In this document: one piece after another, positions 5,977 through 64,000 of the stretch
Position numbering within the stretch: the first letter of the stretch is position 1
How the letters are laid out: each line of letters begins with the position of its first letter
Assembly: GCA_041648665.1 (NCBI GenBank)
Contig: JBAZOP010000002.1
Span: 50,262-114,261, forward strand
DNA length: 64,000 bases
Direction of reading: 5' to 3'
From: a bacterium
Lineage (GTDB): Bacteria > UBA10199 > 2-02-FULL-44-16 > JAAZCA01
Position numbers and translations under genes: made by a program
Notes under the pieces: model-generated
Database searches by the model: none
The model's input: the letters and a program-made list of their open reading frames with translations, nothing else
Told to the model about the DNA's origin: nothing

Positions 5977-6050
5977 TCGGGGCGAGAGGATTCGAACCTC
6001 CGACATCCAGCTCCCAAAGCTGGCGCGCTACCAGGCTGCGCTACGCCCCG
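5977..6050 (-). tRNA. tRNA-Pro (anticodon TGG)
   Basis: Minus-strand read CGGGGCG-TA-GCGC-AGCCTGGTA-GCGC-G-CCAGC-TTTGGGA-GCTGG-ATGTC-GGAGG-TTCGAAT-CCTCT-CGCCCCG-A. All four stems pair, with U8, GG in the D-loop, TTCGAAT in the T-loop and anticodon TGG. No encoded CCA. Confidence 0.8.
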
Positions 6051-15753: not shown

Positions 15754-15755
15754 CG

Positions 15756-19911: not shown

Positions 19912-19947
19912 ACCCACATTATCATATGGGTTTGCGTTTGTCAACCA
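19912..19947 (-). promoter_or_regulatory. promoter, TTGACA, 17 nt, TAATGT (conserved motif family)
   Basis: GGTTGACAAACGCAAACCCATATGATAATGTGGG on the minus strand. Confidence 0.5.
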
Positions 19948-20576
19948 TCCTGGCGCCACATGACGGCCTCGACGTCCAGGGTGGCGGGGACCCAGACCTC
20001 CCAGCGGGCGCTCGCCCAGGTGGTGCCGCGGGCCTCCTCGACCCAGGGCGCCCCCAGGGCCATCCGCGCCACCTCCGCGCCCCCCAGCCGCCACGCGCCG
20101 CGGTGGCCCCAGCCCACCAGCCGCCACAGGAAGTCCTCGGGGGTCAGCAGCCGCGTGAACGCGCTCCGCACCCGCTCCGCCCGCTCCTCGCCAACGGCCC
20201 GCAGCGCGGCCCCCAGGGCGAACCGCGCGCCGTCGTCGCAGGGGCTCGGGGCCGCCTGCGCCATGAACATCTCCGTCACCGCGCCGTCCACGCTCACGCC
20301 CGCGCCCCCGGCCCGGCTGGGGTGCACGTCGAACCGCGCCTCGCAGCGCACGCTGCCGTCCGCCTGGGGCGCCTGGCTGATGCGCTGGAGCACGCACGCC
20401 TCGGCGTCCCCCAGGGTCACCCGCAGCGGCGGCGGCCCGTCCGCCCAGCGCTCCCCATTGGGCAGCACGCCCTCGCGCAGCAGCCGGAGCGCCGCGCGGT
20501 AGGCCGGCGTCTCCACGAGGTCGGGCGTGCCGACCACCCGGAGCGCTGCCTCGCCCAACCGCCGAAGTCGTCCCAC
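19941..20576 (-). CDS. hypothetical protein
   Basis: 211-aa ORF. ATGA overlap with the upstream gene. Confidence 0.45.
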   Translation of the reverse strand: MGRLRRLGEAALRVVGTPDLVETPAYRAALRLLREGVLPNGERWADGPPPLRVTLGDAEACVLQRISQAPQADGSVRCEARFDVHPSRAGGAGVSVDGAVTEMFMAQAAPSPCDDGARFALGAALRAVGEERAERVRSAFTRLLTPEDFLWRLVGWGHRGAWRLGGAEVARMALGAPWVEEARGTTWASARWEVWVPATLDVEAVMWRQDG

Positions 20577-20578
20577 GG

Positions 20579-21220
20579 CTACGCCTCCCCTTCCAGCATG
20601 GCCAGCAGGCGTCCCATAGATCCCGCGTTGCTCTCCGCCACGTTCTTGCCCGCCGTGCTGATGCTCAGCGCGCCGCTCTTGGATCGCTTCAGCAACCCAC
20701 GCCGCACCAGCGCGTCCACCTCCGCAGGCTGCACGCGCTCGTGATCGAACACCTCCTTGCGCGCCGACGAGATGAGGCTCCGGATCGTGCGCAGGATCAT
20801 CTGCTCCCGGGGCGTCACCTCAGCGCCGGCCGGCAGCAGCGGCGCCAGGGCGTCCGGGTGCACGTAGACCGTGGCCATGGTCCGCGGGTGGCCCTGCGTG
20901 CCGACGACGATGGCGCCCCCAGGCGGGATGCGCACCGGCTTGTTGGCGAAGTCGATCTCCTGCGGGTCGTCCGGCCGCGCGCCCCCCCATCCGCCCCCGA
21001 GGTCGCGCGCGCGCCCGCTGGCGAGGTCCACCACCAGCACGAACCCCTTCTGGCCCTCCCCCGCGTAGGGGTTGGGCACCACGCTCTCCTGCGGCACCAC
21101 CGCGATGTCCGCCGCGCGGTACTCCACGCGCTTCAGCGCCGCCCGCAGGCTCGCTGGCAGATCACGCAGGGGCAGGTGTACCTGCCGCGCTTCCGTCATC
21201 CGCTGTAGCAAGTCCCGCAT
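20579..21220 (-). CDS. hypothetical protein
   Basis: Start taken at MRDLLQRM with SD GGAGGCGAG. The track start is a GTG inside the palindrome. Confidence 0.45.
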   Translation of the reverse strand: MRDLLQRMTEARQVHLPLRDLPASLRAALKRVEYRAADIAVVPQESVVPNPYAGEGQKGFVLVVDLASGRARDLGGGWGGARPDDPQEIDFANKPVRIPPGGAIVVGTQGHPRTMATVYVHPDALAPLLPAGAEVTPREQMILRTIRSLISSARKEVFDHERVQPAEVDALVRRGLLKRSKSGALSISTAGKNVAESNAGSMGRLLAMLEGEA

Positions 21221-21257
21221 GTCCGATCTCGCCTCCGTGCTGGCGAACACGTGTTCG

Positions 21258-21746
21258 CTACGCCCTCACCTCGCCCGCGATATCCTTCAGCTCGCCCGCC
21301 GCCTGCTCCAGGTCCCGCGCGAACGACGCTGCCATGTCCCGCGTGAACCGCGATCTGCCCACGTTGTCGGCGTAGGCCCGCGCCTTCTCGATGGCCCGCT
21401 CCAGCGTGGCCCGGATGCCCGCCGCCGTGATCGCCTCGTCCAGTCCCTCGGCCGCCAGCCGCCCCCGCACCGGGGGCGTGATGTCCACCACGGCCAGCTC
21501 GGTGTCGAAGATGGCCTTGGCCAGCCGGTCCAGGGCGTCCAGGGCGACCCGGAGCGCCCGCTTCACCTGCGGGCTGGCGGAGGCCACCTCCTCCTCCGGC
21601 TCCCCCTTGGCGATGGCCCGCATGGCCAGATCCCCCGCGAAGTTGCGCACCCGGCTCCCGAAGTCGTACACCTGCGCCTTGCGCACGTCGCGCGGGCCCA
21701 GCCGCTTGAATGCCGCCTCTTCCAACTGGCGTAGCAGTGATCGCAT
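21258..21746 (-). CDS. MRHLIEQL-family protein (paralogue 3; MRSLLRQLEEA)
   Basis: Internal ATG. Shares the family N-terminus. Confidence 0.45.
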   Translation of the reverse strand: MRSLLRQLEEAAFKRLGPRDVRKAQVYDFGSRVRNFAGDLAMRAIAKGEPEEEVASASPQVKRALRVALDALDRLAKAIFDTELAVVDITPPVRGRLAAEGLDEAITAAGIRATLERAIEKARAYADNVGRSRFTRDMAASFARDLEQAAGELKDIAGEVRA

Positions 21747-21759
21747 GGTACAACCTACC

Positions 21760-22044
21760 TCATTCGAAGGGCGCCCCATGGTCGAATTCCTTGGACCACA
21801 CCTTCTCCGCGAAGACTGGGAGCGCCTTGCAGGCAAACATCAGGTGCTCCTGGAGCGCGTCCAGCTCCTTCTCCGGCAGATCGGCCTCCACGATCCGGTC
21901 GATCAGGTCCCGCACCTGCCCCTCGATCTCGGCCCGCAGGTCGCGGACCGCCTTGGCCAGCGTGCGGAAGTTGTCGCGCCCCTCCGCCAGCGCCCCGGGG
22001 CGCCCGGTCACGGCCTCGTTGAGTTGATCGACCAGGTGTCGCAT
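21760..22044 (-). CDS. MRHLIEQL-family protein (paralogue 4; MRHLVDQLNEA)
   Basis: Internal ATG. ATGA overlap with 22047..22643. Confidence 0.45.
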   Translation of the reverse strand: MRHLVDQLNEAVTGRPGALAEGRDNFRTLAKAVRDLRAEIEGQVRDLIDRIVEADLPEKELDALQEHLMFACKALPVFAEKVWSKEFDHGAPFE

Positions 22045-22046
22045 CG

Positions 22047-22643
22047 CTACTCCTCCCATCCGTGAGCTTTGTTCCATTTGGTGGCTGCGTCCATGGCAAC
22101 GTCCCAGATCCAGTGCGTATCGTCATCCAGCCACTCGTCATGCCCCAGATCGTGCGCGACGTTCTCCGCGATCTGCGTCGCGTTGGCTTCCTCGTCATCT
22201 TCCAGGTCGCGCAGCTCGCGGGTCGCAGCCGCCTGCGCCTTGCGGATCAACGCGAACTGCTTCTGCTTCCACGCCTCCTGGTCCTTCTTAAAGCGCAAGC
22301 CGTCCGCGGCGCCCCACCCGCGCGGCAGAGTCAGGAAACGCTCCAGCGTTCCCTCCTCCAGCCGCCGCAGTAACTGATCCATGCTCTCTTCTTTCCCCTT
22401 CCGGCCGCGCTGCACGGCCCGCTCGAAGGCGCCCGCCTTCGCCCCCATGTCATCCTGGCCCTTGAAGTGCTTCTCGCGAGCGGCCCCCCGGGGCGTCTGC
22501 GTGCGCGCCCCCGGCTGGCTGTACCCGCTCTTCTGGCTCTGCGCCGTGCAGATGGCGAAGGCCGCGCCCAGGTCCTTCCCCTGACCGCTGACGTCCGCCA
22601 CGCACCGCTGCATGAACCGTGATTGCTTGCGGGGACCGGGCAT
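22047..22643 (-). CDS. hypothetical charged protein
   Basis: 198-aa ORF. Confidence 0.45.
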   Translation of the reverse strand: MPGPRKQSRFMQRCVADVSGQGKDLGAAFAICTAQSQKSGYSQPGARTQTPRGAAREKHFKGQDDMGAKAGAFERAVQRGRKGKEESMDQLLRRLEEGTLERFLTLPRGWGAADGLRFKKDQEAWKQKQFALIRKAQAAATRELRDLEDDEEANATQIAENVAHDLGHDEWLDDDTHWIWDVAMDAATKWNKAHGWEE

Positions 22644-52954: not shown

Positions 52955-53092
52955 ATGAAGATCGAACGCATCCGACGCCGGGTCATGCAGATCACCTACG
53001 ACGGCCGCTCCCCGGAGATGGAGGCCCGGGCCAGCGCGCTCGCGCTCGCGCTGGGCGCGCGCGGCTACACCGTGACGCTGGTGAAAGCGTAG
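52955..53092 (+). CDS. small protein (45 aa)
   Basis: Hand-translated MKIERIRRRVMQITYDGRSPEMEARASALALALGARGYTVTLVKA with SD GAGGAGG. Below the ORF-track size cutoff. Confidence 0.4.
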   Translation: MKIERIRRRVMQITYDGRSPEMEARASALALALGARGYTVTLVKA

Positions 53093-53169
53093 GGAACTGG
53101 ACGCGCACACGTGTGCGCATGATCGTGCCCACAACGGTGCCACGCACCGTTCAACCAGGAGGAGAAGCC

Positions 53170-53958
53170 ATGAACGAGACCGAGACCCCCAAGACGATCG
53201 ACGGGCTGATCGTGGAGCTGCAGGAGGCCGAGGAGCGCCGCGACGACGCCCTGGCCGACTACGGCCGCGTGCTCCAGGAGAAGCTGGCGCTGGAGGCGAC
53301 CTGCGAGACCCTGCAGGTGCTCGTGGCCTCCGCCGAGGGGGCCGCCACGGGGTACAAGGCCGCGGTCGCCGACCTCGCGGCCCGGCTCCAGCTGGCCGAG
53401 GCCGAGCGCGACGCGCGCGCCCTGGACGAGGAGTGGCGGGCCAAGCGCATCGAGATCCAGAAGCTCCGCGACAAGTGCGAGCAGATGCGCAAGAACCTGA
53501 TCGCCGTGGACGCCCGGGCGGACGAGCGGTACGAGGCGCGCGTCGTCGAGATCTGCGCCGAGCGCGACCGGGCCATCGCCGCCGCCCAGGCCGACGCAGC
53601 TGCCCAGATCGCCACCGCGGAGGCCGGCGTCGCGGAGCGCATCGCCACGATCCGGGCCGAGGCCGCCCAGACCATCACCGAGCGCTGCGCCCAGTCCGAT
53701 GCCGCCGCGCGGCTGGCCACGGTCGCGCACGGGGAGGCCGACGCCCGGGCCGCCGCCGCCACGCAGCGGGCCGAGATCGCGGAGCGCAACCTGGCCATGG
53801 TCCGCCAGGCCAACGTCCACCGGGTCGATGCCCTTCGGGACGCGGTGGCCCTGACGTTCGCCTGGGAGCGGCGCGACACGCGAAAGGTCAAGTCGGCGGA
53901 CGACCTGATGCAGCAGCTCCAGAAGACGCTGTACCAGGCGATCGCCGTGGCGCGGTAG
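53170..53958 (+). CDS. coiled-coil protein (263 aa)
   Basis: Start MNETETPK with SD AGGAGGAG. The palindrome GCGCACACGTGTGCGC lies about 50 nt upstream. Ala/Glu/Arg-rich heptad-like sequence. Confidence 0.5.
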   Translation: MNETETPKTIDGLIVELQEAEERRDDALADYGRVLQEKLALEATCETLQVLVASAEGAATGYKAAVADLAARLQLAEAERDARALDEEWRAKRIEIQKLRDKCEQMRKNLIAVDARADERYEARVVEICAERDRAIAAAQADAAAQIATAEAGVAERIATIRAEAAQTITERCAQSDAAARLATVAHGEADARAAAATQRAEIAERNLAMVRQANVHRVDALRDAVALTFAWERRDTRKVKSADDLMQQLQKTLYQAIAVAR

Positions 53959-54029
53959 GTGCGGAGGATCCCCCCTCCCCCTGGGCAGAACCTGCGAGGT
54001 CCGGCATGGCCGGGCGAAGGAGAAGAAAG

Positions 54030-54251
54030 ATGGACCGCAGCGACTTGGGAACCGACACGACCCTGGTGATCAACCTCGACGCCGAGATCTGGGCGGCCTG
54101 CCCCGACGAGCCCCTCAGCGCGGCCCCCCCGCTGCGCCTGGCGCCCGACCTGCGCTGGCGCGACCTCTACGACGAGGACGAGCCGGGATGCCTGTTCGAC
54201 CGCTACCCGCGCACCGGCCGGGCCCGCAGCCGCCGGCGGCACGCCGCGTAA
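54030..54251 (+). CDS. hypothetical small protein (73 aa)
   Basis: Strong SD GGCGAAGGAGAAGAAAG before ATG (MDRSDLG). Confidence 0.45.
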   Translation: MDRSDLGTDTTLVINLDAEIWAACPDEPLSAAPPLRLAPDLRWRDLYDEDEPGCLFDRYPRTGRARSRRRHAA

Positions 54252-54681: not shown

Positions 54682-55425
54682 CTAGCTGCGGGCCGCGCCC
54701 TTCAGCTCGCGCGCGCCCTTGGAGAGCACCCCTGCCGACACCGTGGCCCCGGCCGCCGCCAGCGCCTTGGCCACCAGCGCCTCCAGCGGGCCCTGGATCA
54801 TGCCCGCGAACATCTGCGCCTGCCCCTCGTCGTCGAAGGTCCGGGTGAGCAGCACCTCCAGCTTGGGCGCCCCCAGCATGGCCTCCGCCATCCGCCCCAC
54901 GACGCCCGCGCTGACCGCCTCGTCCACGCCATCCAGCTCGCGCAGGATGTCCTCGAAGCGAACCCCCATTGGGGCGCGCGCCGGAGCGGATGGCGCAGCA
55001 GCACCGGGCCTCTGGGCAACTGTCTTCTTCTCTGCCTTCCTCTTTTTCTCCCGAGCCTTGTTCACTTTGAGCAAGGTATTTTTTTGCCCCCGTTCAAAGT
55101 GACCGACCACACTGGCCTTCACACACTTCCCGAAGACCATCTTCATTCCAGGCGGACACCCGCGCCCCAGCGCCTCGTCCATCTCCTCCTGCGTCGCCCC
55201 CGGAGCCGCCCCCTTGGCCCGGGCGATCTTGGCGCACAGCGCCTCCGGGTCGTCCACGCCGCCCTTACAGCGCATAAACTCGACGCAGCTCTGGAAGCGC
55301 TCCCCCTTCTCCCCCTTGAACCGGCCCGTCTCCGAGTCGATGTACTTGGCCTTGCACGGCTCGTCGGCCTCGGCCATCAGCACTTCCACCTCGACCTGCT
55401 CCAGGATCTCTCGCATGCTTCCCAT
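54682..55425 (-). CDS. Lys/Ala-rich protein (paralogue of 58320..59156)
   Basis: Shares PG(M/T)KMVFGK(C/I)VK and an acidic N-terminus (VEVLMAEADE vs ALALLMEADGD). Confidence 0.45.
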   Translation of the reverse strand: MGSMREILEQVEVEVLMAEADEPCKAKYIDSETGRFKGEKGERFQSCVEFMRCKGGVDDPEALCAKIARAKGAAPGATQEEMDEALGRGCPPGMKMVFGKCVKASVVGHFERGQKNTLLKVNKAREKKRKAEKKTVAQRPGAAAPSAPARAPMGVRFEDILRELDGVDEAVSAGVVGRMAEAMLGAPKLEVLLTRTFDDEGQAQMFAGMIQGPLEALVAKALAAAGATVSAGVLSKGARELKGAARS

Positions 55426-55590
55426 GATCCATTCCTCCAGATCCCTACGGGGATCCCGTAGGCGAAACCGCGGGCAGCGGCGCGCCGGTGCTCACCGACA
55501 CGGGCAGCGGGACAATCCCGCTGGTCTGACGTAAGCGCGGGTCCCGCCGACGGCGCCGACGTTTTCCCTGCTGCATGTCCACGATACCCT

Positions 55591-55941
55591 TCACCGACCT
55601 CGCTCCCGTGGCCGCAGGGCCACCTCCGCTCCGCGATCCGTGCGCTGCGCATCCGCGCGATCAACATCTTCCACCATCGCGAAGATCTTGGCAAGCTGCT
55701 GGGCTACCATCATGGCGTGGCGCCCCTCGATCTGCATCGTGATCGCCATGGGTCCCGCCGGCGTGGGGCGCGCTGCAAACCTATAACTGGACACCAGCCG
55801 CCCCCGCACCGCGCGCTCCCCACGCATGCGCAGGAAGCTCAGCAACCGGCTCTCCGTGCGCGTGAGGGCGCGCTCCTTTGCTGCCGCGACCGGGGGAACC
55901 TCGTCCAGGAGCGCCCGCAGGCGCTCGCTCTCGCGGGCCAT
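55591..55941 (-). CDS. hypothetical protein
   Basis: Start MARESERL, 2 nt after the amidase stop. Confidence 0.35.
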   Translation of the reverse strand: MARESERLRALLDEVPPVAAAKERALTRTESRLLSFLRMRGERAVRGRLVSSYRFAARPTPAGPMAITMQIEGRHAMMVAQQLAKIFAMVEDVDRADAQRTDRGAEVALRPRERGR

Positions 55942-55943
55942 GC

Positions 55944-56624
55944 TCACGGGATCGCATCCATGAGATGGTCCAGCAGGTAGCGGCCATCTGCATGCCCAGC
56001 GAAGTCGCGGTGCGCCACGATGCCAGGGCCCGGCTTCGCGGACCACCCCAGTGGGGGCTTGCGCCACCCCCGGATCCGCGGCTGGGGCGCCCCCAGGTCG
56101 CGCGTGGGGAACACCACGGGGATCCCCAGGTGGTCGCACAGCCAGGGCACCAGGACCACCGTCACCGCCAGCTGGATCGGCAGCGGAGTCACGTAGAGGC
56201 GCTTGGCCCCCTTGGGCACCCAGCACCACCACGGCGCCGACACGATGATGCCGTGCGGCTCCCGCGCCAGCTCCGGCCGGTACGGGTTCACCACCTCCAG
56301 GCCCACCGACACCTTGTTGACCTGCCCCGCGTGCCAGCACACCTCCGTCGCCAAGTCCGCGTGGTTGTGGATCACGCCGTCCTTCCCCAGCACGAGGTGG
56401 ATGCCCAGCTTGCGGCGCCGGATCGTGTCCGCGCAGCCCGTCGCCGAGTTGCCCGCCGTCTCGTGCAGCACGAAGGTGGTCAGCAGCTTCAGGCGCTCGG
56501 CGTTGGCCAGGTGCGGCTCGCCGTCGTCCTTCCAGTTGCGCGCCGTGCCCCCCGCCTCCAGCACGATCCGTGGCAGCGGCAAGCGCTCGCCACGCACGAT
56601 GAGGTTGTTCGATGGCTCGCTCAA
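55944..56624 (-). CDS. N-acetylmuramoyl-L-alanine amidase (Amidase_2/PGRP-type endolysin)
   Basis: FVLHETAGNS...GIHLVLGKDGVIHNHADLATEVCWHAG...NKVSVGLEVVNPY...IVAHRDFA. TTG start with SD GGAGGTG. Confidence 0.7.
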   Translation of the reverse strand: MSEPSNNLIVRGERLPLPRIVLEAGGTARNWKDDGEPHLANAERLKLLTTFVLHETAGNSATGCADTIRRRKLGIHLVLGKDGVIHNHADLATEVCWHAGQVNKVSVGLEVVNPYRPELAREPHGIIVSAPWWCWVPKGAKRLYVTPLPIQLAVTVVLVPWLCDHLGIPVVFPTRDLGAPQPRIRGWRKPPLGWSAKPGPGIVAHRDFAGHADGRYLLDHLMDAIP

Positions 56625-57052
56625 ATGACACCTCCTGCCTTCCGGATGCGCCGGAACGCCCGGACCATGGACCGCAGCGGCACGCTGCCCTCCGCCGTCC
56701 ACTGGACCGCCGTCAGGACCATGCCCACGCCCACGAGGTCGGCATCCTCGGGCGCCTCCACGGCCCCGAGCTTCCCCTCCTTCTCGAACCAGAATCCGTA
56801 GGCGTCCCGCGTCCAACGCACGGTCGCCGTTGCGGGCCCCGCCGGATCGTGGGGCACCAGGACGACCACGCGCAGGTCGCCCACCTCCTTGCCCTTGGGC
56901 CCCCGCAGGCGCGAGGCGAAGCGCGCCGTCGCCCGGGCCACCCCGTCGGACGGCCGCTGTGGCAGGCGCGCCCGGGCCGCCAGGCGGCGGTCGAAGATCG
57001 CCTCCATGATGCGGTCAAGAATGCCCGCCGCTACTGCCGTCCGCGCATCCAC
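56621..57052 (-). CDS. hypothetical protein
   Basis: 143-aa ORF overlapping the amidase start. Confidence 0.4.
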   Translation of the reverse strand: MDARTAVAAGILDRIMEAIFDRRLAARARLPQRPSDGVARATARFASRLRGPKGKEVGDLRVVVLVPHDPAGPATATVRWTRDAYGFWFEKEGKLGAVEAPEDADLVGVGMVLTAVQWTAEGSVPLRSMVRAFRRIRKAGGVI

Positions 57053-57053
57053 G

Positions 57054-57359
57054 TCAGATCTTCCCGGCCTTGCGCTTCGCGCTCAGCTCCCGCCGCAGCC
57101 CCTCCGGACTGGTGTCCTTCTTCCGGGCCTTCTTCATGGCCTTCGGCATGCCAAGTGGCTCCCCGCCGTCGTCCGGGAAGAAGATCTCGCTGCCGTTCAC
57201 CGTGCGCCAGTGCCCCTTCTTGCCCTGGAACTCCCACGTGTCGTCGCCGACCTTCTTGGAGACCGTCCTGCGCTTGGCCTTCCGCAGCGCATTCCAGAGC
57301 TTCTCCGCGCCCCCCGCCTCCTCCAGCGCCTCGAACACCTGCTCCATCGTCACCGACAT
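57054..57359 (-). CDS. hypothetical basic protein
   Basis: 101-aa ORF. Confidence 0.4.
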   Translation of the reverse strand: MSVTMEQVFEALEEAGGAEKLWNALRKAKRRTVSKKVGDDTWEFQGKKGHWRTVNGSEIFFPDDGGEPLGMPKAMKKARKKDTSPEGLRRELSAKRKAGKI

Positions 57360-57363
57360 GGCA

Positions 57364-58278
57364 TCACCCTGCTTTCCAGGAGGCGAAGAGCTTCTGGGCC
57401 TGCTTCAGCATGGCCTCCAGCGCGTCCACCTCCTCGTCGTGCTGCTTGTTCAGCTCCTCGCGCTCGCGCTTGTCCTTGGCATCCATCGGCGTCCCAGCCC
57501 CGTAGATGCGCGCCCGCAGATGCTGGATCTCCTGCCAGTGCCGCTGCAGCTCGGACAGCGCAAGCGAGAACCGCGCCCCCTCCCGGCTCTCCTCCATCAG
57601 CGCCCGCTTGGGATCGGCCGCCGCCGCCTCTGGGATCGTCACGCGCACGGTCTTCCCCGCGCTGTGCTTCACCGGGTAGGTCGGCACCCGGCCCGAGTTG
57701 CTGAACCACGCCCGCACGCCGTCCAGCAACGCCTGGGCCTTGTCCTCCAGCGCGTGCATGGCAGCCTCGTGCTGCTTCCAGTTCTTTTTGGCCTCCTGCA
57801 GCGCGACCTCCTTCCACGCATCGCCCAACCCATTCACGATGCTAGCCAGTGCGGCCTGGGACCCGTGCGACGCTTCTGGCGCTGGCACGCCAGCCAGCGA
57901 TGCCAGATCCTTGGCGATCCACTTGCCGTCCCGCGCGCTGTCAAGCACCCTTCGAACAGCCCGGTCGATCTTGAACTTGTCGATGGGCTTGTCAGACGGA
58001 AGCTCGTCGATCACGGCATCCGCGAAGTGGCGGCCGCCCTTCCCATCCAGGAACTCCCGGATGGCCTTGGATGGGATGCCCTGATACTTCTGCACGAACA
58101 CCCGGAACGCTCCGTTCCACGCCTCATCCGGAGGTACAGATCCAGACGGAGCGTCTGATAGTCTGCTCGACATTGTCCCGAAGAACCCCCACGACGTGTT
58201 CTCCGTGGGCAACACCTGCCCCTGCCGCTTCCCTACCGCTTCGCAGATCTGCTGCCCCAGCTGCCGCAACGTTCCCAT
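57364..58278 (-). CDS. hypothetical protein
   Basis: Start taken at MGTLRQLGQQ with SD AAAAAGGAGAAG. The track start is a GTG inside the palindrome. Confidence 0.45.
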   Translation of the reverse strand: MGTLRQLGQQICEAVGKRQGQVLPTENTSWGFFGTMSSRLSDAPSGSVPPDEAWNGAFRVFVQKYQGIPSKAIREFLDGKGGRHFADAVIDELPSDKPIDKFKIDRAVRRVLDSARDGKWIAKDLASLAGVPAPEASHGSQAALASIVNGLGDAWKEVALQEAKKNWKQHEAAMHALEDKAQALLDGVRAWFSNSGRVPTYPVKHSAGKTVRVTIPEAAAADPKRALMEESREGARFSLALSELQRHWQEIQHLRARIYGAGTPMDAKDKREREELNKQHDEEVDALEAMLKQAQKLFASWKAG

Positions 58279-58319
58279 CAGCTTCTCCTTTTTCTCAGCG
58301 AACACGTGTTCGCCATCTA

Positions 58320-59156
58320 CTACGCGCGCTCCTCCAGCACACGGAACACGTCCTCCATCGACTCCTTGCGGACCCGCGCCTTCCCCTTGCTCCTCCCCTT
58401 GGGCGCCGCCCCGCGCTTGGGCGCCACGGCCGGCGCACCCTTCTTCTTGCCCGGGGCCGCCCCCTTCTTAGCGGGGGCCTTCCGGGCGCCCTTCGCGGGC
58501 GCCGCAGCGGCCTGGGGAGCCCGCTTCTTGGCCGGCGCCTTCGCCGCGCCGCCCGGGCCGTACGACGCCGCCCGGGCTCCCTTGCCCGCTCGCTCCTGCG
58601 CGCGCGCGGCCTGCCCGGACGCGAACGCGTGCGTCTCGCCTGCCCGGGACGCCGCTTGGTAGGTCCCCTTGGCCGCCGCGTAGGACGCCTTGCCAGCGGC
58701 CCGCCCCTTCACGTCGCGCACCTTCTTGGCCGCCTGCCGGGCCTGCTTGCCCGCCTGTGTGAAGCGGAAGCTGTGCGCCTGCACCCCCCGCTTGGCCGTG
58801 ACGGCCGCCTTGCCCACGGCCTTGGCCGCGCCCGCGACCCCCTTGCCCACCTTCACGATCTTGCCGAAGACCATCTTGGTCCCGGGCGGCAGCTTCTTCT
58901 TGACGGCCGCCGCCTTGCCCTTGAGCCAGCTGCCCAGCCCCTCCAGCGCCAGCTCCTGCTGCGCCGTCAGCGGGCCATCCGCAGCCGCCTCCAGCAGGTC
59001 CGCCAGGAAGTCCAGCCGATCCGCGTCCGCCTCCTCGAAGAGATCTGCCAGCATGTCGCCGTCCGCCTCCATGAGGAGCGCCAGCGCCTCCTCCCCCTCG
59101 ACCTCGAACAGCGGCCCCCCCTCGATTCCCTCAAACACGTCCTGCATCGTCCTCAT
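58320..59156 (-). CDS. histone H1-like Lys/Ala/Pro-rich protein
   Basis: AKAPAKKRAPQAAAAPAKGARKAPAKKGAAPGKKKGAPAVAPKRGAAPKGRSKGKARVRK. Acidic N-terminal domain. Paralogue of 54682..55425. Confidence 0.45.
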   Translation of the reverse strand: MRTMQDVFEGIEGGPLFEVEGEEALALLMEADGDMLADLFEEADADRLDFLADLLEAAADGPLTAQQELALEGLGSWLKGKAAAVKKKLPPGTKMVFGKIVKVGKGVAGAAKAVGKAAVTAKRGVQAHSFRFTQAGKQARQAAKKVRDVKGRAAGKASYAAAKGTYQAASRAGETHAFASGQAARAQERAGKGARAASYGPGGAAKAPAKKRAPQAAAAPAKGARKAPAKKGAAPGKKKGAPAVAPKRGAAPKGRSKGKARVRKESMEDVFRVLEERA

Positions 59157-59166
59157 GGCGACCCTC

Positions 59167-59634
59167 CTACTCTGCTTCCTCTTGTAGCGCACGCGCCGCT
59201 AGCTGGTCCAGATCCTTCGGCAACGAAGCCGCGCGCGCTGGCATGGGCGCAGCAGTCACGGGCACTACCTCCACCACCGGAGGAACCGCTCCCCCCTGGC
59301 CAGCCCCGGCCACCATGGGCATCCGCATGTAGCCCGTGCTCACAGACGCACGCTGGAGCAACATCGCGTTCACCGTCTCGCGCAATGCAGTTTCCGCAGC
59401 ATCCATCCGCTCCATGCGCTCGCACATCGACTCTATGCGCGCCTTCAGCAGCTGGTACGCCACATCCGCCTTGGCCTCCGCCTTGTCATCCGTGTCGTCC
59501 AAGAATTCCCAGAACCCTGGCACCCCCATGGCCGCCACAAGAAGGACTGCAACCGTAGGGAGCCCAGCACGCTTCAACATGGAAGCCTTCTCCGCGATCT
59601 CGGAAATTCCACTCTGCTTGTCGGTCTTCGCCAC
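59167..59634 (-). CDS. membrane protein (possible holin/spanin-type lysis accessory protein)
   Basis: TM helix LPTVAVLLVAAMGVPGFW. Confidence 0.4.
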   Translation of the reverse strand: MAKTDKQSGISEIAEKASMLKRAGLPTVAVLLVAAMGVPGFWEFLDDTDDKAEAKADVAYQLLKARIESMCERMERMDAAETALRETVNAMLLQRASVSTGYMRMPMVAGAGQGGAVPPVVEVVPVTAAPMPARAASLPKDLDQLAARALQEEAE

Positions 59635-59646
59635 GGTACACCTCTC

Positions 59647-60126
59647 CTAAACTTCGTCTGGCTCGGTATCGTATCCACCGCACTTCGGACACTTCACCTC
59701 GAACGTGCTCTTGCCCAGCTTCTTCCGAAAGCGCGCGCCACACTCGTTGCACAGCATCCGCGTGCCAACAGCCTCGGCAACGATGTCCTCGCTGACAACC
59801 TTGGTCGCGCCAATGACCACCGTCGTCTCGTCGCTCAGGAAGCCGCCCGTGATGCGGAACAGCACGCCGTCCCCCTGCCGCTCCCACCGCACCTGCACCG
59901 GCCGGTACGCCGGGTCTCCACCCTCCTTCCGGTGGTGGAACTCCGCCACCTCGCGCTCCCGCAGCGGCCCCCGGCCGTTCCACCACTCGCCCCCCAGGCC
60001 GATCTCCAGTGCCCCGTCCAGGGGGTGCCAGATGAAGTCCAGCAGCCCCTTCGTGGCCGCGATGCGCAGCGTCGAGGCGAAGCCCTCGTTCACCGCTCGG
60101 TCCAACTGCTCGATCAAGTGCCTCAT
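59647..60126 (-). CDS. MRHLIEQL-family protein with C-terminal zinc ribbon (paralogue 5)
   Basis: MRHLIEQLDRA N-terminus. CNECG...CPKCGG. Confidence 0.5.
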   Translation of the reverse strand: MRHLIEQLDRAVNEGFASTLRIAATKGLLDFIWHPLDGALEIGLGGEWWNGRGPLREREVAEFHHRKEGGDPAYRPVQVRWERQGDGVLFRITGGFLSDETTVVIGATKVVSEDIVAEAVGTRMLCNECGARFRKKLGKSTFEVKCPKCGGYDTEPDEV

Positions 60127-60129
60127 GAT

Positions 60130-60714
60130 TTAGAACCTCCCAGCTAATCCCTCTCTCGCAGAGAAGATCCGCAGTTCGGTGAACGCTTCAACTTGAACAT
60201 CGAGTTCCATGATGCTGACCTCGCCAGAGGTGGCATCCATATCAGACCCTGGCTTGTACCTGGTCGGAATTGCGTTCCACAATAACCAAACTCTACCTGG
60301 AAGAAACTGCGATGATTCCCATGCCTCAATAGCAATCGGAAGCATAACTTCCAAATCGTCCTTGTTCTTTGTGTTGATGTTCGTGAACTGGATCAGCAGC
60401 AGGTTGCGCGGCACCATGTCGATACCGCGGAGCGCGCGCGTGATCCACTGGTAGAACGTGTCGTCGTAGCAGCGCGCGCCGCGCATCAGCGTGATCGCGC
60501 CCACGCTCCCCCCGCTGTACACGTACTTTTTGTACATGGAGTTGACCTGCTTGACCTCGTCCACCTCCAGCGTCAGCTCGGGCATCGTGATGCTCTGGTA
60601 GCCCATGATGGGCGACCCCAGCACGAAGAAGGGGAACGTGGACGAGGGCACCAGGTCCAGCAGCCAGAAGCGGTGACTTTGGAGGAGGTCCTCCAGCGGG
60701 TGACGATTCGGCAT
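60130..60714 (-). CDS. tail tube protein (gp19/FII-like), lower GC
   Basis: QSITMPELTLEVDEV...DATSGEVSIMELDVQVEAF. Paralogue of the next gene. Confidence 0.6.
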   Translation of the reverse strand: MPNRHPLEDLLQSHRFWLLDLVPSSTFPFFVLGSPIMGYQSITMPELTLEVDEVKQVNSMYKKYVYSGGSVGAITLMRGARCYDDTFYQWITRALRGIDMVPRNLLLIQFTNINTKNKDDLEVMLPIAIEAWESSQFLPGRVWLLWNAIPTRYKPGSDMDATSGEVSIMELDVQVEAFTELRIFSAREGLAGRF

Positions 60715-60741: not shown

Positions 60742-61275
60742 CTAGGAGTTGAGCAGCTCGACCTTCTCCAGGGCGAAGTCCACCTCGGCCAGCGACACCT
60801 CGCCAGACATCGAGTCGAAGTCCGCGGACGGCTTCACGCGCATGGGGATGCAGTTGTGGCACACGACGCGCCGGAAATCCGTGCTCTGCGCAGATTGCGC
60901 TGCATCGGCCATTTCCGCGCGCTGGTAGTGCCAGATGGTCACGTCAGACCGGAACTTCTCGCCAGTGACAGCCCGCATCACCCAGTCGTAGAACGCCATA
61001 TCCCGCTTCGCCACGCCCCGCATCAGCGTGCAGTCGGACACGGTGGGAGGCCCCGCGTACTTCTGCGTCCAGGTCCAGGTGCCCTCCCTGTACTCCGACG
61101 CCTCCAGCGAGATCTCGGGGATGGTCACCGACTGGAAGCCCGCCTGGCCGCCACCCTCGAACGGTTCGAGGCTTGCCCCACGCTCGGGCGTCTGGAGCAG
61201 ATCTGTCCCATCCTCGTTCACCGCCGAAGCGTGGAACCGGAAGCCCTGCATGAGATCGTCTACCGTCGCGCGCAT
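60742..61275 (-). CDS. tail tube protein paralogue
   Basis: QSVTIPEISLEASEY...DSMSGEVSLAEVDFALEKV. Confidence 0.6.
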   Translation of the reverse strand: MRATVDDLMQGFRFHASAVNEDGTDLLQTPERGASLEPFEGGGQAGFQSVTIPEISLEASEYREGTWTWTQKYAGPPTVSDCTLMRGVAKRDMAFYDWVMRAVTGEKFRSDVTIWHYQRAEMADAAQSAQSTDFRRVVCHNCIPMRVKPSADFDSMSGEVSLAEVDFALEKVELLNS

Positions 61276-61819: not shown

Positions 61820-63964
61820 CTAACCAATCGAACGTTGGCTGAACCGGAAACAAATATATTCCGCCGGCTTGTTGCAGGCGATGCCCACGTCGCAGTAGAC
61901 GATGCCCTGGTCGACTGTGTTCTGCGGGTTGTTGGACCGGTTGCAGATCACGAAGAAGGCCTCCTCGGGGGTGCTGCCGGCGAAGTAGCCGCCCTGGTAG
62001 AGGCCGGACAGGAAGTTGGTCAGCTGGGTGGTGATCGCGTTCCAGAGCGGCGGCCCGTTGTTCTTGAAGACGTGGATGTGGGTGGCGTTGAACACGCTCT
62101 TCTCGACGAACATGAACAGCCGCCGCATCTGGATGTAGGGCCACTCGCCACCGGCCACGTCCAGGGAGCGCACGCCCCAGACCACGCGGCCAGTGATGGG
62201 CCACTCTACGAGGCAGTTGATCTTGTTCTCGGTGCAGTAGCCCACCTGGGCCTGCGTGAGCGTGTACTCCAGGCCCTGCGACCAGGACAGGGATCCGTCC
62301 TCCATGCCGCCGGGCGCCTTGCCCACGTTCTTGTTGCTGTCCGTGCGCGCGTACACGCCCGCGACGTGGCCGCCCGGGGGCACGTCCACCACGGTGGAGG
62401 TGATCGGGTCGCGCACCTTGATGTGCGGGTAGTAGATGGCGCCGAAGGAGCTGTAGCGGTTGAGCGTGAAGCGCTTCCAGGTCACGGCCTCCTGGTACTC
62501 CAGGCCGAACGGCACCGCGCAGATGACGAACTTGTCCTTCATCAGCTCAGCGTAGGTGAGCAGCGCGTCGATGACGTAGGGGTCGGTCTGGAAGTCGGCC
62601 GCCACCAGCTGCATCAGCTCGTCCACCTTGCCGAAGGCGTACAGGCCGCGCATGTCGGCCGCCAGCAGCGGGCTCACGATGTCGTCGCTGTCGGTAGCGG
62701 ATCCATCCAAGCCGCCGGTCAGCAGACCCTCGATGGACGAATCCGGCTCGGCGTAGTAGTCCGCCAGCTCGCCGCCCGTGAGGGAATCGGCACCGAACAC
62801 GTCCAGCGGCGCCGTGATGCCCAACGCGGTGAGCGTACCCGCGGGCACCGGGTTGGAGAAGGTCAGCTCGGCTGTCGCCCCGGTCAGCAGCGTGCGGGTG
62901 GTCTGCGTGCCGTCGCCGTTGTCATCCACCACCACGACCCCGGGCAACCCGGCCTCGACCAGCGCCTCGTATTCATCCGCGCGCACCGCTTCGATGTCGT
63001 CCACGTCGCCGGTGCCATTCACGGGCGGGTTAAGCCAATCCAGCAGCGCGTCCGCCGTCCCGCCAGCGACGTGGGCCACGGTGGAGTTGAGCCCCCACAC
63101 GTCGGACGTGACGCGCATGTTGACGCCGTCCAGGGACGCGAACGCCCCGGGCACCTGCGCGTTGACCGCGTTGATCGCATCCGCAACCGCCCACACGCCA
63201 CCCAGCGGCGGCGTGAACGTCACCGTGCGCTGCGTCCCGCCGATGTCCAGGATCGTCGTCAGGCCATCCAGCAAGAGGCCCGCACCCCACACCGTCGACT
63301 CGGTGAGGTACCCCTGCGTGGCGTTGAACGTGATCGTGGCGGGGGCGCCCAGGCCGTTTGCGTCGAGATCGAAGCTGCAGCCAGGAGTGAGGACCCACGG
63401 CCCCGCCGTCGAGGTCTTCGATGCGGCCGTGGCCGTGGTGAACGTGCCGGCCGGCCCGGCCGCGGGGTCGCCCGCGATCTTCCAGGTCAGCACGATCTCG
63501 CCGGTGTCGTAGTCGATCGTGTTGGTGCCCGACGTGTTCAGCTCGAACTTGGTCGGGGATCCCACCACCGGAGGCGTCAGCGTGGCCGGGTCGGCGATGC
63601 TCAGCACGCCGTTGCCATCGTCGATCACCGTCACGGGCTGCGCATAGGTGCAATCGATCAGCACCGCGGAGTCCACCACGAATGTGTCAGCCGCTGGCGT
63701 GAGGTCGATCGCGATGGCGCCGGTGGTGTAGGTGATGGTGCCGACGCCGAACCCGCCATAGGTCAGGTTTCCAGCGCCGTCGTCTACCAGCACGCTGCCA
63801 GGGCCGCCGCCCGTGAGGTTGGCGGTGATCAGCACGCTGCCCGCCACCAGCGCCGCCGGGGTCCACGTCAGGTTGGGCACCGCCGTGATCGGGTTGGTGC
63901 CCGTGCCGATGCGGGTGAGGTGCTCGATGAAGCGGAACTCGGCCACGAACGTGGTCGGGAACAC
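61820..63964 (-). CDS. tail sheath protein (N-terminus may lie beyond the window)
   Basis: The C-terminal domain ...VICAVPFGLEYQEAV...GVYARTDSNKNVGKAPGG...VVWGVRSL... is typical of contractile sheath proteins. Confidence 0.7.
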   Translation of the reverse strand: MFPTTFVAEFRFIEHLTRIGTGTNPITAVPNLTWTPAALVAGSVLITANLTGGGPGSVLVDDGAGNLTYGGFGVGTITYTTGAIAIDLTPAADTFVVDSAVLIDCTYAQPVTVIDDGNGVLSIADPATLTPPVVGSPTKFELNTSGTNTIDYDTGEIVLTWKIAGDPAAGPAGTFTTATAASKTSTAGPWVLTPGCSFDLDANGLGAPATITFNATQGYLTESTVWGAGLLLDGLTTILDIGGTQRTVTFTPPLGGVWAVADAINAVNAQVPGAFASLDGVNMRVTSDVWGLNSTVAHVAGGTADALLDWLNPPVNGTGDVDDIEAVRADEYEALVEAGLPGVVVVDDNGDGTQTTRTLLTGATAELTFSNPVPAGTLTALGITAPLDVFGADSLTGGELADYYAEPDSSIEGLLTGGLDGSATDSDDIVSPLLAADMRGLYAFGKVDELMQLVAADFQTDPYVIDALLTYAELMKDKFVICAVPFGLEYQEAVTWKRFTLNRYSSFGAIYYPHIKVRDPITSTVVDVPPGGHVAGVYARTDSNKNVGKAPGGMEDGSLSWSQGLEYTLTQAQVGYCTENKINCLVEWPITGRVVWGVRSLDVAGGEWPYIQMRRLFMFVEKSVFNATHIHVFKNNGPPLWNAITTQLTNFLSGLYQGGYFAGSTPEEAFFVICNRSNNPQNTVDQGIVYCDVGIACNKPAEYICFRFSQRSIG

Positions 63965-64000
63965 GTCGTGCGCGAGCTGGTACTGCCAGCCCTTCCAGAC

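What the first reader, a model, noticed from the sequence alone, without database searches (positions are those of the whole stretch)
54682..59156. Two paralogous Lys/Ala-rich, histone H1-like proteins flanking the lysis region
54682..55425 and 58320..59156 share an acidic N-terminal segment and the motif PG(M/T)KMVFGK(C/I)VK. The second carries a long AKKAP/KAPAKK tail like H1 or AlgP. Such proteins bind or condense DNA. In a phage they could be packaged internal or DNA-compaction proteins or host-nucleoid modifiers. Duplication suggests functional importance.
Basis: seen in the sequence. Interest (0 to 1): 0.5.

Follow-up and report, generated by a model that had tools for sequence, protein, structure and literature searches.

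The report
Leader-tagged candidate phage head internal proteins
The two lysine/alanine-rich genes are real, but rather than being simple duplicates they belong to a large set of unrelated small phage proteins that all start with the same ten-residue tag, a tag also found on this phage family's capsid protein and capsid protease, which suggests they are loaded into the phage head and travel with the DNA, as the internal proteins of phage T4 do.

Summary
Both ORFs are real genes (54682-55425 and 58320-59156, minus strand) in an uncultivated, high-GC, distant T4-type myovirus. They are not full-length paralogues. BLASTP aligns only the 12-residue PPGxKMVFGK motif.

- **ORF A:** the motif plus its basic tract is an 86-residue insertion, absent from all six relatives compared.
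- **Shared features:** (1) a roughly 10-residue N-terminal leader, consensus M-R-x-L-[I/F]-E-x-[L/M]-E; (2) a small beta-hairpin plus basic-helix module.
- **Leader distribution:** it opens at least seven genes in this window. In related metagenomic phages it opens 124 genes in 54 unrelated families, nearly all without annotation. It is about 45-fold enriched at N-termini and is conserved at the peptide level, not the nucleotide level. Its core is the L/I-x-E cleavage signature of the T4 gp21 protease.
- **Link to the head:** the only large proteins carrying the leader core are the family's gp23-type capsid proteins and one gp21-type protease. Tail proteins lack it.
- **ORF B:** bipolar, with an acidic N-terminal part (net -19, containing the LxE sites) and a 186-residue K/A/G/R-rich body (net +44).

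Best reading (about 0.55): T4-style capsid-targeted, protease-processed internal proteins, with B a polycationic DNA-associated one. There is no homology to H1. No proteomic evidence is available.

The parts
58320..59156 (-). ORF B, 278 aa, pI 10.2: leader, acidic prodomain, hairpin motif, K/A/G/R-rich body, K/A/P tail, C-terminal leader-like motif
   Evidence: Gene call on source contig; SD + ATG; 14 homologues; only 7 representatives among 1.84 billion proteins
59121..59156 (-). B leader, aa 1-12, MRTMQDVFEGIE (V-F-E at 7-9; I-F-E in most homologues)
   Evidence: PSSM 16.1 bits against null P(>=9)=0.0025; conserved in alignment A1
58929..59120 (-). B acidic segment, aa 13-76, net -17, containing all four internal [LI]xE sites (starting at 16, 28, 39, 54); L-F-E ending at E18 is conserved
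   Evidence: E18 invariant in A1
58851..58889 (-). B hairpin motif, PPGTKMVFGKIVK, aa 90-102
   Evidence: Invariant P91 G92 K94 M95 V96 F97 G98 V101 K102; regex hits
58371..58928 (-). B polycationic body, aa 77-262, net +44, no [LI]xE site; aa 197-262 is the variable K/A/P tail predicted disordered
58323..58370 (-). B C-terminal leader-like motif, RKESMEDVFRVLEERA (L-E-E at 274-276); in homologue P0002 it is the junction to a further domain
   Evidence: M267 and F271 invariant; P0002 extension matches a separate leader-bearing gene of L001
54682..55425 (-). ORF A, 247 aa: leader, Cys-rich domain, inserted hairpin/basic module, conserved C-terminal helical domain
   Evidence: Identical to P0015, 'MAG: hypothetical protein WC683_01655' on a 161,166-bp contig; alignment A2; AlphaFold pLDDT 69
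55390..55425 (-). A leader, aa 1-12, MGSMREILEQVE (I-L-E at 7-9)
   Evidence: PSSM 17.5 bits; M1 M4 I7 L8 E9 invariant in A2
54928..55194 (-). A insertion, aa 78-166, absent from all six relatives compared: Cys-bounded hairpin GCPPGMKMVFGKCVK (55117-55158), basic helix aa 104-153 (net +10), internal leader-like GVRFEDILRELDG (L-R-E at 161-163)
   Evidence: (strands 94-97/100-103, then helix 104-137)
59647..60126 (-). Leader-bearing gene p159, MRHLIEQLDRAV, with C-terminal zinc ribbon
   Evidence: PSSM 24.5; zinc-ribbon hits below Pfam cut-offs
57054..57359 (-). Leader-bearing basic gene p101, MSVTMEQVFEALEE, pI 9.9
   Evidence: PSSM 14.0
57364..58278 (-). p304 with a variant leader, MGTLRQLGQQICEA; homologues in relatives start MTTMRRLSGLLTEA
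   Evidence: below PSSM threshold in the window; phrog_8020, function unknown
55944..56624 (-). Amidase_2 (N-acetylmuramoyl-L-alanine amidase) gene without leader, lying between B and A: context, not part of the leader set
19941..22643 (-). Second cluster of leader-bearing genes: 21760-22044 MRHLVDQLNEAV; 21258-21746 MRSLLRQLEEA; 20579-21220 MRDLLQRMTEA; 19941-20576 variant MGRLRRLGEA; 22047-22643 with internal KGKEESMDQLLRRLEE
   Evidence: 20.8, 18.6 and 15.7 bits

Best explanation
**Proposal.** ORF A and ORF B are two members of an array of proteins that share a short N-terminal leader. I propose the leader acts like the capsid-targeting sequence (CTS) or propeptide of phage T4 internal head proteins.

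**Proposed steps (all inferred).**
1. The amphipathic leader (M-R-x-L-[I/F]-E-x-[L/M]-E) docks the protein onto the scaffolding core while the prohead assembles.
2. The gp21-type (S77) prohead protease then cuts after the L/I-x-E inside the leader.
3. It may also cut at leader-like junctions inside multi-module proteins: aa 161-163 in A, aa 274-276 in B.
4. In B, the protease would also fragment the acidic N-terminal 76 residues, which hold all the internal LxE sites. This would unmask a 186-residue polycation (net +44) that stays with the packaged DNA, neutralises charge and is probably ejected with it.
5. The PPGxKMVFGKxVK hairpin plus basic helix is a small portable module. It is present in B, inserted in A, and found as or within separate small genes in relatives. 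It may be the DNA- or core-contacting element.

**Shown here.**
- The leader exists.
- It is restricted to N-termini and selected at the peptide level.
- It sits on dozens of unrelated families.
- It is shared with the capsid protein and the protease.
- Relatives carry a T4-type head module.
- B has this charge layout.

**Inferred, not shown.** Targeting, cleavage, DNA binding and ejection.
For: 1. **Leader statistics.** A PSSM learned from N-termini gives 116 hits in the first 9 positions of 1,629 predicted proteins in 75 loci, against 59 at internal positions (about 45-fold per position). Shuffled proteins give 2 and 15.
2. **Location.** 63 of 175 plus-strand genes downstream of the sheath carry it, against 8 of 154 upstream.
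3. **Window scores.** p159 24.5, B 16.1, p101 14.0, A 17.5, and 20.8, 18.6 and 15.7 in a second cluster. Sheath, tube, hub and the 1320-aa protein all score 2.1 or below. Null P(>=9 bits) is 0.0025.
4. **Peptide-level selection.** Information lies in codon positions 1-2, not 3.
5. **Diversity.** The 124 leader-bearing genes fall into 54 BLAST families. Of 58 representatives, only 2 have any Pfam hit and none has an annotated PHROG. [quoted passage not shown]
6. **Cleavage signature.** The most informative leader positions are [L/I]-x-E, the gp21 cleavage motif L/I-X-E (PMC9026906).
7. **Link to the head.** The leader core [RK].[LIM][LIFMV]E[QRESKG] occurs in the first 16 residues of 98 genes, against about 4 expected. 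The only proteins of 280 aa or more that have it are gp23-type capsid proteins (MEARELFEQAG..TEARALLEQAG, MQARNIVEEDG) and one gp21-type protease (MPKQLIESS). T4 gp21 has LIE-9 at the same place.
8. **Head module in relatives.** Portal_T4, Peptidase_S77 and Gp23 (E 1e-68) are all present.
9. **Two-ended motifs.** B and A have leader-like motifs at both ends or at domain junctions, as T4 Alt has N- and C-terminal propeptides (ITE-6, LTE-619; PMC5694885). P0002 fuses B through this motif to a domain that is a separate leader-bearing gene elsewhere.
10. **Properties of T4 internal proteins.** They are 'nonessential, highly basic' (PMC8442874), K/A-rich, and their lysines contact DNA phosphates. 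In T4, ipIII and ipII directly follow the lysozyme gene e, a similar neighbourhood to the one here.
Against: - There is no virion proteomics and no cleavage data for any member; the phage is uncultivated.
- The PSSM trained on this family does not recognise the T4 CTS. IPIII scores -4.4. The best T4 head proteins, gp24, gp67 and Alt, score only 5.0, 2.4 and 1.3, and two non-head proteins score higher. The resemblance to T4 is therefore one of kind, not demonstrable homology.
- The genes sit among tail genes, between tube and baseplate hub, not beside the head module.
- The head module was seen only in relatives (46-69% sheath identity). This contig's own head genes lie outside the window and could not be fetched.
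- In this phage, B's first site is V-F-E rather than L/I-x-E.
- L/I-x-E is a short motif. About a quarter of all predicted plus-strand genes have one in residues 2-13.
- The absence of LxE sites in B's basic body follows trivially from its near lack of Glu.
Confidence: 0.55

Rival explanations
1. They are prohead core or scaffolding-type proteins, like T4 gp67, gp68 and gp22. They would be targeted to the core by the same leader but serve head-size or assembly roles, then be degraded and expelled. They would not be retained as DNA-associated or ejected proteins.
For: - B is the most conserved leader-bearing protein of the high-GC subclade. That fits a structural role better than an arms-race effector.
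- Its bipolar acidic/basic layout recalls T4 gp67, which has a helical N-terminal part and a poly-acidic tail.
- Several LxE sites would fragment its N-terminal part.
- T4 IPIII mutants show head-assembly aberrations (PMC9026906).
Against: - The 186-residue basic body has no L/I-x-E site, so it would survive a T4-type protease.
- T4 core proteins are cut into many fragments.
- The variable, composition-only K/A/P tail looks like a polyanion-binding element rather than a scaffold lattice contact.
Confidence: 0.17
2. The leader marks tail-associated proteins, such as tail assembly factors or proteins loaded in the tail, or cargo in the manner of extracellular contractile injection systems. The reasoning is that the array sits between the tail tube genes and the baseplate hub.
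For: - Gene position is conserved in relatives: sheath, tube, tube, array, RHH, gp26-like hub, 1320-aa protein.
- PF06841 tube proteins are also typical of eCIS (this point is from my own knowledge).
- N-terminal packing signals for tube-lumen cargo are known in PVC/Afp systems (also from my own knowledge, not checked here).
Against: - None of the recognisable tail proteins (sheath, both tubes, gp26-like hub, 1320-aa protein) carries the leader. The capsid protein and the prohead protease do.
- The family has a complete T4-type head module, so it is a phage and not an eCIS.
- A tube lumen already occupied by a tape-measure protein could not hold products of ten or more genes (inference).
- A second leader cluster lies elsewhere in the genome, next to a gp9/10-like gene.
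Confidence: 0.1
3. B, and the insert of A, are cytoplasmic histone-like or nucleoid-associated proteins. They would coat or compact phage or host DNA during infection and would not be packaged. The leader would have some other role, such as protein-protein docking or regulated turnover.
For: - The composition is H1/AlgP-like: K/A/P-rich, predicted helical then disordered.
- No direct evidence of packaging exists.
Against: - There is no homology to linker histones or to any DNA-binding family.
- This reading does not explain why about 54 unrelated families, the capsid protein and the protease share the leader.
- The acidic prodomain with clustered protease-type sites would have no purpose.
Confidence: 0.1
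4. The similarity between A and B is chance or low-complexity, and the ORFs have nothing in common.
For: - BLASTP aligns only 12 residues.
- High-GC genomes produce Ala/Arg/Gly-rich translations.
Against: - The motif is not low-complexity.
- It is invariant across B homologues.
- It recurs 14 times in related loci, always in the coding frame of leader-bearing or basic proteins.
- It matches the Cys-bounded version in a separate gene of L001 at E 1e-6.
- The N-terminal leaders score 16-17 bits, against null P 0.0025 for 9 bits or more.
Confidence: 0.02

Closest known systems
[quoted passage not shown]
   Same: - A short N-terminal tag of 6-20 residues sits on otherwise unrelated, mostly small and often basic proteins.
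- The tag contains the L/I-x-E cleavage site of an S77 prohead protease.
- The same type of tag is present on shell and core proteins.
- Some members have motifs at both ends, like Alt.
- Composition is K/A-rich.
- The genes sit next to a lysis enzyme gene.
   Different: - The leader consensus differs (M-R-x-L-[I/F]-E-x-[L/M]-E), and a profile of it does not score the T4 CTS.
- The set is far larger: at least 7 genes in this 64 kb and 54 families across relatives.
- It is clustered between tail tube and baseplate genes.
- B is much larger than the T4 internal proteins. It has a long acidic prodomain, a conserved hairpin motif and an H1-like tail.
- Packaging and cleavage are not demonstrated.
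Processed ejection and inner-body proteins of giant phages (phiKZ, SPN3US), with propeptides removed by an S80 protease
   Same: Many head-internal proteins are processed at a short x-x-E motif by a gp21-related protease, and paralogues share identical N-terminal propeptide starts (PMC5694885).
   Different: Those propeptides are mostly longer than 100 residues and the motif is A/S/G-x-E. Here the leader is about 10 residues, with L/I at P3 as in T4, and the protease matches Pfam Peptidase_S77.
Linker histone H1 C-terminal domain and Pseudomonas AlgP-type K/A/P-rich tails
   Same: The amino-acid composition of B's aa 197-262 (K, A, P, G, no acidic residues) and its predicted disorder.
   Different: B has no winged-helix globular domain. 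It has no sequence or profile similarity and no regular repeat unit. In homologues the tail varies in sequence and length, with only composition retained.

Membership tests
T4-type CTS-bearing head internal proteins | A short N-terminal propeptide (about 6-20 aa) shared by otherwise unrelated proteins of the same phage | tested here: met
   The leader is enriched about 45-fold at N-termini. It occurs on 124 genes in 54 families, with 7 strong instances in the window.
T4-type CTS-bearing head internal proteins | The propeptide contains an L/I-x-E cleavage site for the prohead protease | tested here: met
   PSSM positions 3-5 are [L/I]-[I/F/L/V]-E. A has I-L-E at 7-9. B has V-F-E at 7-9 (I-F-E in most homologues) plus the conserved L-F-E ending at 18. 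The motif definition comes from PMC9026906. Actual cleavage was not tested.
T4-type CTS-bearing head internal proteins | The phage has a T4-type head assembly module: gp20 portal, S77 gp21 protease, scaffolding core, gp23 capsid protein | tested here: met
   Portal_T4 (4e-59), Peptidase_S77 (1e-13; N-terminus MPQLLIET, as T4 MNEPQLLIET) and Gp23 (1e-68) are present in relatives L051, L009, L081 and L083. The head genes of the window's own contig lie outside the window and were not retrievable.
T4-type CTS-bearing head internal proteins | Sequence similarity of the leader to the T4 CTS MKTYQEFIAE | tested here: not met
   The family PSSM scores IPIII at -4.4. gp24, gp67 and Alt score 5.0, 2.4 and 1.3 among 77 T4 proteins, all below the 9-bit threshold. 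The resemblance is limited to length, position, amphipathic pattern and L/I-x-E.
T4-type CTS-bearing head internal proteins | Physical presence in the capsid, N-terminal processing, and ejection with the DNA | not testable with these tools
   Needs virion mass spectrometry or biochemistry. The phage is known only from metagenomes.
Linker histone H1 / H1-like nucleoid proteins | A globular winged-helix domain (Pfam Linker_histone), or detectable homology to H1, Hc1 or AlgP | tested here: not met
   No Pfam hit, even at E<=10 on subsegments. No PDB profile hit. The AlphaFold model is helical then disordered, with pLDDT 51.
Linker histone H1 / H1-like nucleoid proteins | A Lys/Ala/Pro-rich, acid-free tail | tested here: met
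   B aa 197-262 has K14, R5, A22, P9, G10, D0, E0. This is composition only: there is no tandem repeat and the sequence is not conserved among homologues.
Whole-protein paralogy of A and B | Alignable similarity over most of both proteins, and a shared domain core in the orthologues of each | tested here: not met
   BLASTP aligns only 12 residues. The A segment carrying the motif is absent from all six relatives compared. Profile search with B's family finds no A-family protein among the 7 representatives returned.
eCIS / tail-lumen cargo with N-terminal packing signal | A contractile particle without capsid genes, and a signal restricted to cargo of the tail | tested here: not met
   Relatives encode portal, protease and capsid protein. 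The leader core is on the capsid protein and the protease and not on tail proteins.
2-cysteine adaptor domain (Pfam 2C_adapt), considered for the CPPGxKMxFGKC hairpin | A match to the Pfam model | tested here: not met
   No Pfam family at E<=10 for the 55-residue segment. The idea came from memory of a similar Cys-x-G-K...G-x-C pattern.

The most novel reading that the evidence does not exclude
An uncultivated deep branch of T4-type phages uses its own N-terminal capsid-targeting leader to load a very large and fast-evolving 'ejectome' into the head. This set has more than 50 ORFan families across relatives and ten or so per genome. One conserved member (B) is a pro-protein whose acidic prodomain is removed by the prohead protease, releasing a histone-H1-like polycation that packs with the DNA. 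That would be a phage analogue of adenovirus pre-protein VII or of protamine maturation. The leader would then be a sequence-only rule for predicting injected proteins in metagenomic phages.
Probability: 0.35. Interest if true: 0.65.

Novelty: new variant of a known kind. Interest (0 to 1): 0.5.

Why it matters
- **A sequence handle on injected proteins.** Proteins that phages pack in the head and inject with the DNA are front-line counter-defence and takeover factors. They are almost impossible to recognise from sequence, because outside the T-even phages only the targeting tag is conserved. If this leader is such a tag, it identifies dozens of candidate injected proteins in a lineage with no cultured member.
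- **Reach of the T4 strategy.** It would show that the T4 CTS strategy extends to phages whose capsid protein is only about 27% identical to T4's.
- **A testable pro-protein model.** B would be a concrete, testable case of an acid-masked polycation activated by the prohead protease, relevant to how large phages neutralise packaged DNA.
- **Practical use.** A second, orthogonal capsid-targeting tag would be useful for loading foreign proteins into phage capsids, as is done with the T4 CTS.

Tried and rejected
- **Family searches on A, B and neighbours.** Pfam and PHROG found nothing informative for A or B.
- **tblastn against 50,697 phage records.** A and B gave no match. p304 hit only three unrelated phages, in unannotated or hypothetical regions.
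- **Structure.** AlphaFold2 gave pLDDT 51 for B and 69 for A. Foldseek of A against BFVD had no hit below E 0.1. B's model is too poor to search. PDB profile searches with A1 and A2 found nothing.
- **Exhaustive hmmsearch with B's family.** Only 7 representatives, all the same architecture, so no bridge to a known family.
- **2-cysteine adaptor domain for the hairpin.** No Pfam support.
- **Sequence link to the T4 CTS.** The family PSSM does not pick out the T4 internal proteins.
- **Nucleotide-level explanation of the leader** (shared translation-initiation or recombination cassette). Rejected, because third codon positions carry almost no information.
- **This contig's own head genes.** The 160-aa gene returned only a 1.3-kb contig. 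The metagenome scan with a close capsid protein did not return the 161-kb contig.
- **Enzymatic cargo.** Pfam and PHROG scans of 58 leader-bearing representatives found essentially none.
- **DNA-level tandem repeats in the K/A/P tail.** Only a weak 12-bp x3 array.

Full report
**Context**

The window is high-GC (about 0.66) and most genes lie on the minus strand.

Gene order around the finding is as follows:
- sheath (61820 onward, running off the window; 1057 aa on the source contig)
- a 160-aa gene
- two PF06841 tube genes (60742-61275, 60130-60714)
- a run of small genes that includes ORF B (58320-59156), an Amidase_2 gene (55944-56624) and ORF A (54682-55425)
- a gp26-like baseplate hub gene (PF12322, 51752-52609)
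- a 1320-aa gene
- a Phage_base_V spike gene

ORF A is identical to a protein annotated 'MAG: hypothetical protein WC683_01655 [bacterium]' on a 161,166-bp metagenomic contig.

Seventy-odd related contigs of up to 195 kb exist in IMG/VR and JGI metagenomes. In relatives the head module is of T4 type:
- Portal_T4.
- A Peptidase_S77 (gp21-type) protease that begins MPQLLIET or MPQMLIETW (T4: MNEPQLLIETW) and continues into a scaffold-like coiled-coil tail.
- A Gp23 capsid protein (E 1e-68).

The capsid protein is only about 27% identical to those of cultured T4-like phages. This is therefore an uncultivated, deep branch of the T4 superfamily.

**Check of the observation**

Both ORFs are real. 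They have GGAGG-type ribosome-binding sites, GC3 of 0.87 and 0.94, identical gene calls on the source contig, and homologues.

The motif exists and is not low-complexity. PG.KM.FG occurs only at these two sites in the six-frame translation of the window, and its core is invariant in 14 homologues of B.

B is strongly bipolar:
- aa 1-76 carry net -19
- aa 77-262 carry net +44
- the last 66 residues of that body are K/A/P/G-rich with no acidic residue

The two proteins are not paralogues in the ordinary sense.
- BLASTP aligns 12 residues only.
- In A, the motif, the following basic helix and a leader-like junction (aa 78-166) form an insertion missing from all six relatives compared.
- In the syntenic locus L001, the Cys-bounded version of the motif (GCPEGEKMTFGKCQK) ends a separate 100-aa gene just after the amidase.
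- In L030 and L033 it occurs directly after a leader (MTMRDVAQK...PPGYKMVFGRLVKK plus a basic tail). In L033 this is followed by a stop after about 30 residues.

AlphaFold places the motif of A in a beta-hairpin (strands 94-97 and 100-103) that leads into a long basic helix (104-137). It is a small portable module.

**What else the two ORFs share**

Both begin with the same kind of roughly 10-residue sequence: MRTMQDVFEGIE in B and MGSMREILEQVE in A.

Their neighbours do too:
- p159: MRHLIEQLDRAV
- p101: MSVTMEQVFEALEE
- a second cluster at 19941-22643: MRHLVDQLNEAV, MRSLLRQLEEA, MRDLLQRMTEA

The same holds for most small genes at the same position in relatives.

A position matrix learned from predicted N-termini converges on M-R-[HDRQ]-L-[I/F]-E-[RQS]-[L/M/I]-[E/N/Q]-[E/G]. 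The statistics are as follows.

| Measure | Result |
|---|---|
| Hits in first 9 positions of 1,629 predicted proteins | 116 |
| Hits at internal positions | 59 (about 45-fold lower per position) |
| Shuffled controls (N-terminal / internal) | 2 / 15 |
| Plus-strand genes with leader, downstream of sheath | 63 of 175 |
| Plus-strand genes with leader, upstream of sheath | 8 of 154 |

Many 'internal' hits are mis-called starts or lie at domain junctions. The information sits in codon positions 1-2 and not 3, so the constraint is on the peptide.

The 124 leader-bearing genes fall into 54 unrelated BLAST families. Of 58 representatives, two have any Pfam hit and none matches an annotated PHROG.

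In the window the strong instances score 14-24.5 bits, where the null probability of 9 bits or more is 0.0025. The sheath, both tubes, the hub and the 1320-aa protein all score 2.1 or below. A variant leader (MGTLRxLG...) on p304 and on 19941-20576 is not captured by the matrix.

**Where the leader points**

The most informative leader positions are [L/I]-x-E. This is the cleavage motif of the T4 prohead protease gp21 (PMC9026906).

In T4, the internal proteins, Alt, gp24, gp67, gp22 and probably gp21 itself start with 6-20-residue propeptides that end in this motif. These propeptides target the proteins to the scaffolding core. The T4 internal proteins are described as a highly diverse set with only the capsid targeting sequence (MKTYQEFIAE) in common. 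They are non-essential and highly basic, number about 1000 per head, and their lysines contact DNA phosphates (PMC3012670, PMC8442874, PMC7697877, PMC5694885, PMC9026906). I read the T4 N-termini directly from NC_000866.

The discriminating test was to ask which large proteins in the family carry the leader core. The pattern [RK].[LIM][LIFMV]E[QRESKG] occurs within the first 16 residues of 98 genes, against about 4 expected. Every such protein of 280 aa or more is a gp23-type capsid protein (MEARELFEQAG..TEARALLEQAG, MQARNIVEEDG), except one, which is a gp21-type protease (MPKQLIESS). No tail protein has it. This ties the leader to prohead assembly and processing rather than to the tail, despite the genes' position between tube and hub.

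**Reading of B and A under this model**

For B:
- The first site is V-F-E at 7-9 (I-F-E in most homologues), with a conserved L-F-E ending at 18.
- All four internal [L/I]-x-E sites lie in the acidic N-terminal part (starting at 16, 28, 39, 54). There are none in the 186-residue basic body. One further site sits in the conserved C-terminal leader-like motif RKESMEDVFRVLEERA.
- A T4-type protease would therefore shred the acidic part and trim the end, leaving a polycation of about +44.
- In homologue P0002 the C-terminal motif is the junction to a domain that in L001 is a separate leader-bearing gene. So the motif behaves as a module boundary, as expected for a processing site. T4 Alt likewise has propeptides at both ends.

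For A, sites at 7-9 and 161-163 would release the Cys-rich domain plus hairpin/basic helix from the conserved C-terminal helical domain.

That the acidic part masks the basic body until processing, and that the body binds DNA, are inferences.

**Limits**

- Nothing here shows packaging or cleavage.
- The family matrix does not recognise the T4 CTS. IPIII scores -4.4. gp24, gp67 and Alt rank 3rd, 6th and 7th of 77 T4 proteins, with scores of 5.0 or below. The link to T4 is mechanistic analogy within a shared head-assembly system, not demonstrated homology of the tags.
- The head module was seen in relatives only. The contig's own head genes are outside the window and could not be fetched.
- L/I-x-E is short and common.
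- B's model is poor (pLDDT 51), and no structural or profile match exists for either protein.
- B's family is tiny, with 7 representatives among 1.84 billion proteins. All share leader, acidic segment, GxKMVFGK and a K/A/G-rich region.

**Comparison and verdict**

The closest known system is the T4 CTS/internal-protein system.
- Same: tag length and position, the L/I-x-E site, S77 protease, diversity of cargo, basic members, two-ended motifs.
- Different: the consensus, the size and clustering of the set, and B's architecture.

The H1/AlgP resemblance is compositional only. 'Paralogous' and 'H1-like' are not supported.

I rate this a new variant of a known kind, of moderate interest. Confidence is about 0.55 in the capsid-targeted internal-protein reading. 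Rivals are a degraded core or scaffold role (0.17), tail association (0.10) and an unpackaged nucleoid-type protein (0.10).

Noticed in passing
window 19941-22643 (-): A second cluster of four or five genes with the same N-terminal leader lies downstream of a gp9/10-like baseplate gene (23765-24922). The 198-aa gene 22047-22643 has the leader-like motif internally (KGKEESMDQLLRRLEE). It also has a 'GAAFAICTAQS' motif that resembles 'DPEALCAKIARAKG' in ORF A's Cys-rich domain.
   Followed up: partly
window 8920-10110 (+): A TnpB-like gene (OrfB_IS605 plus the Cas12f1-like TNB domain, E 2e-23) sits on the opposite strand inside the phage genome.
   Followed up: no
window 15004-16919 (-): NAD salvage genes lie side by side: NAPRTase (15756-16919, E 7e-40) and an NAD synthase domain (within 15004-15741, E 4e-55). 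These may be phage-encoded NAD+ replenishment.
   Followed up: no
window 10897-14155 (-): A VWA-domain gene (13403-14155) and a PP2C phosphatase domain (within 12591-13352) lie next to an unannotated 565-aa gene. The arrangement is reminiscent of TerY-type VWA/phosphatase/kinase triads.
   Followed up: no
L051 78-3494 and 7182-9977 (relative, IMGVR_UViG_3300036761_001135): A 1138-aa gene upstream of the portal matches Pfam Intein_splicing, HNH_3 and NUMOD3. The protease-scaffold gene (931 aa, against about 535 aa in other relatives) has a roughly 400-residue insert before its Peptidase_S77 region. I took the insert to be an intein, but no intein family was reported for that protein.
   Followed up: no
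window 55445-55594 (-): A 49-aa Arg-rich micro-ORF (MKGIVDMQQGKRRRRRRDPRLRQTSGIVPLPVSVSTGAPLPAV...) is conserved in L001 and L002 just upstream of the ORF A homologue or its C-terminal domain gene. Its function is unknown.
   Followed up: no
window 59167-59634 (-): The 155-aa gene immediately upstream of ORF B has a hydrophobic stretch (AGLPTVAVLLVAAMGVPGFWEFL) that looks like a transmembrane segment, and it has no leader. It is a possible holin-like or membrane protein.
   Followed up: no
window 52955-54251 (+): A small plus-strand island interrupts the minus-strand operon between the leader array and the RHH/gp26-like hub genes. It includes a 262-aa coiled-coil-like gene (53170-53958) with no Pfam hit. 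The corresponding region in L001 and L002 holds different small opposite-strand genes, so it is a variable spot.
   Followed up: no
window 5977-6050 (-): A tRNA-Pro (TGG) gene.
   Followed up: no
window 61820-64000 (-) / L004 433-3606: The sheath gene is 1057 aa on the source contig and starts outside the window (position 64993 in window numbering). The ORF listing reports a shorter 714-aa ORF from an internal GTG. The Pfam sheath domains cover only the C-terminal third, so there is a large unassigned N-terminal and middle region.
   Followed up: partly
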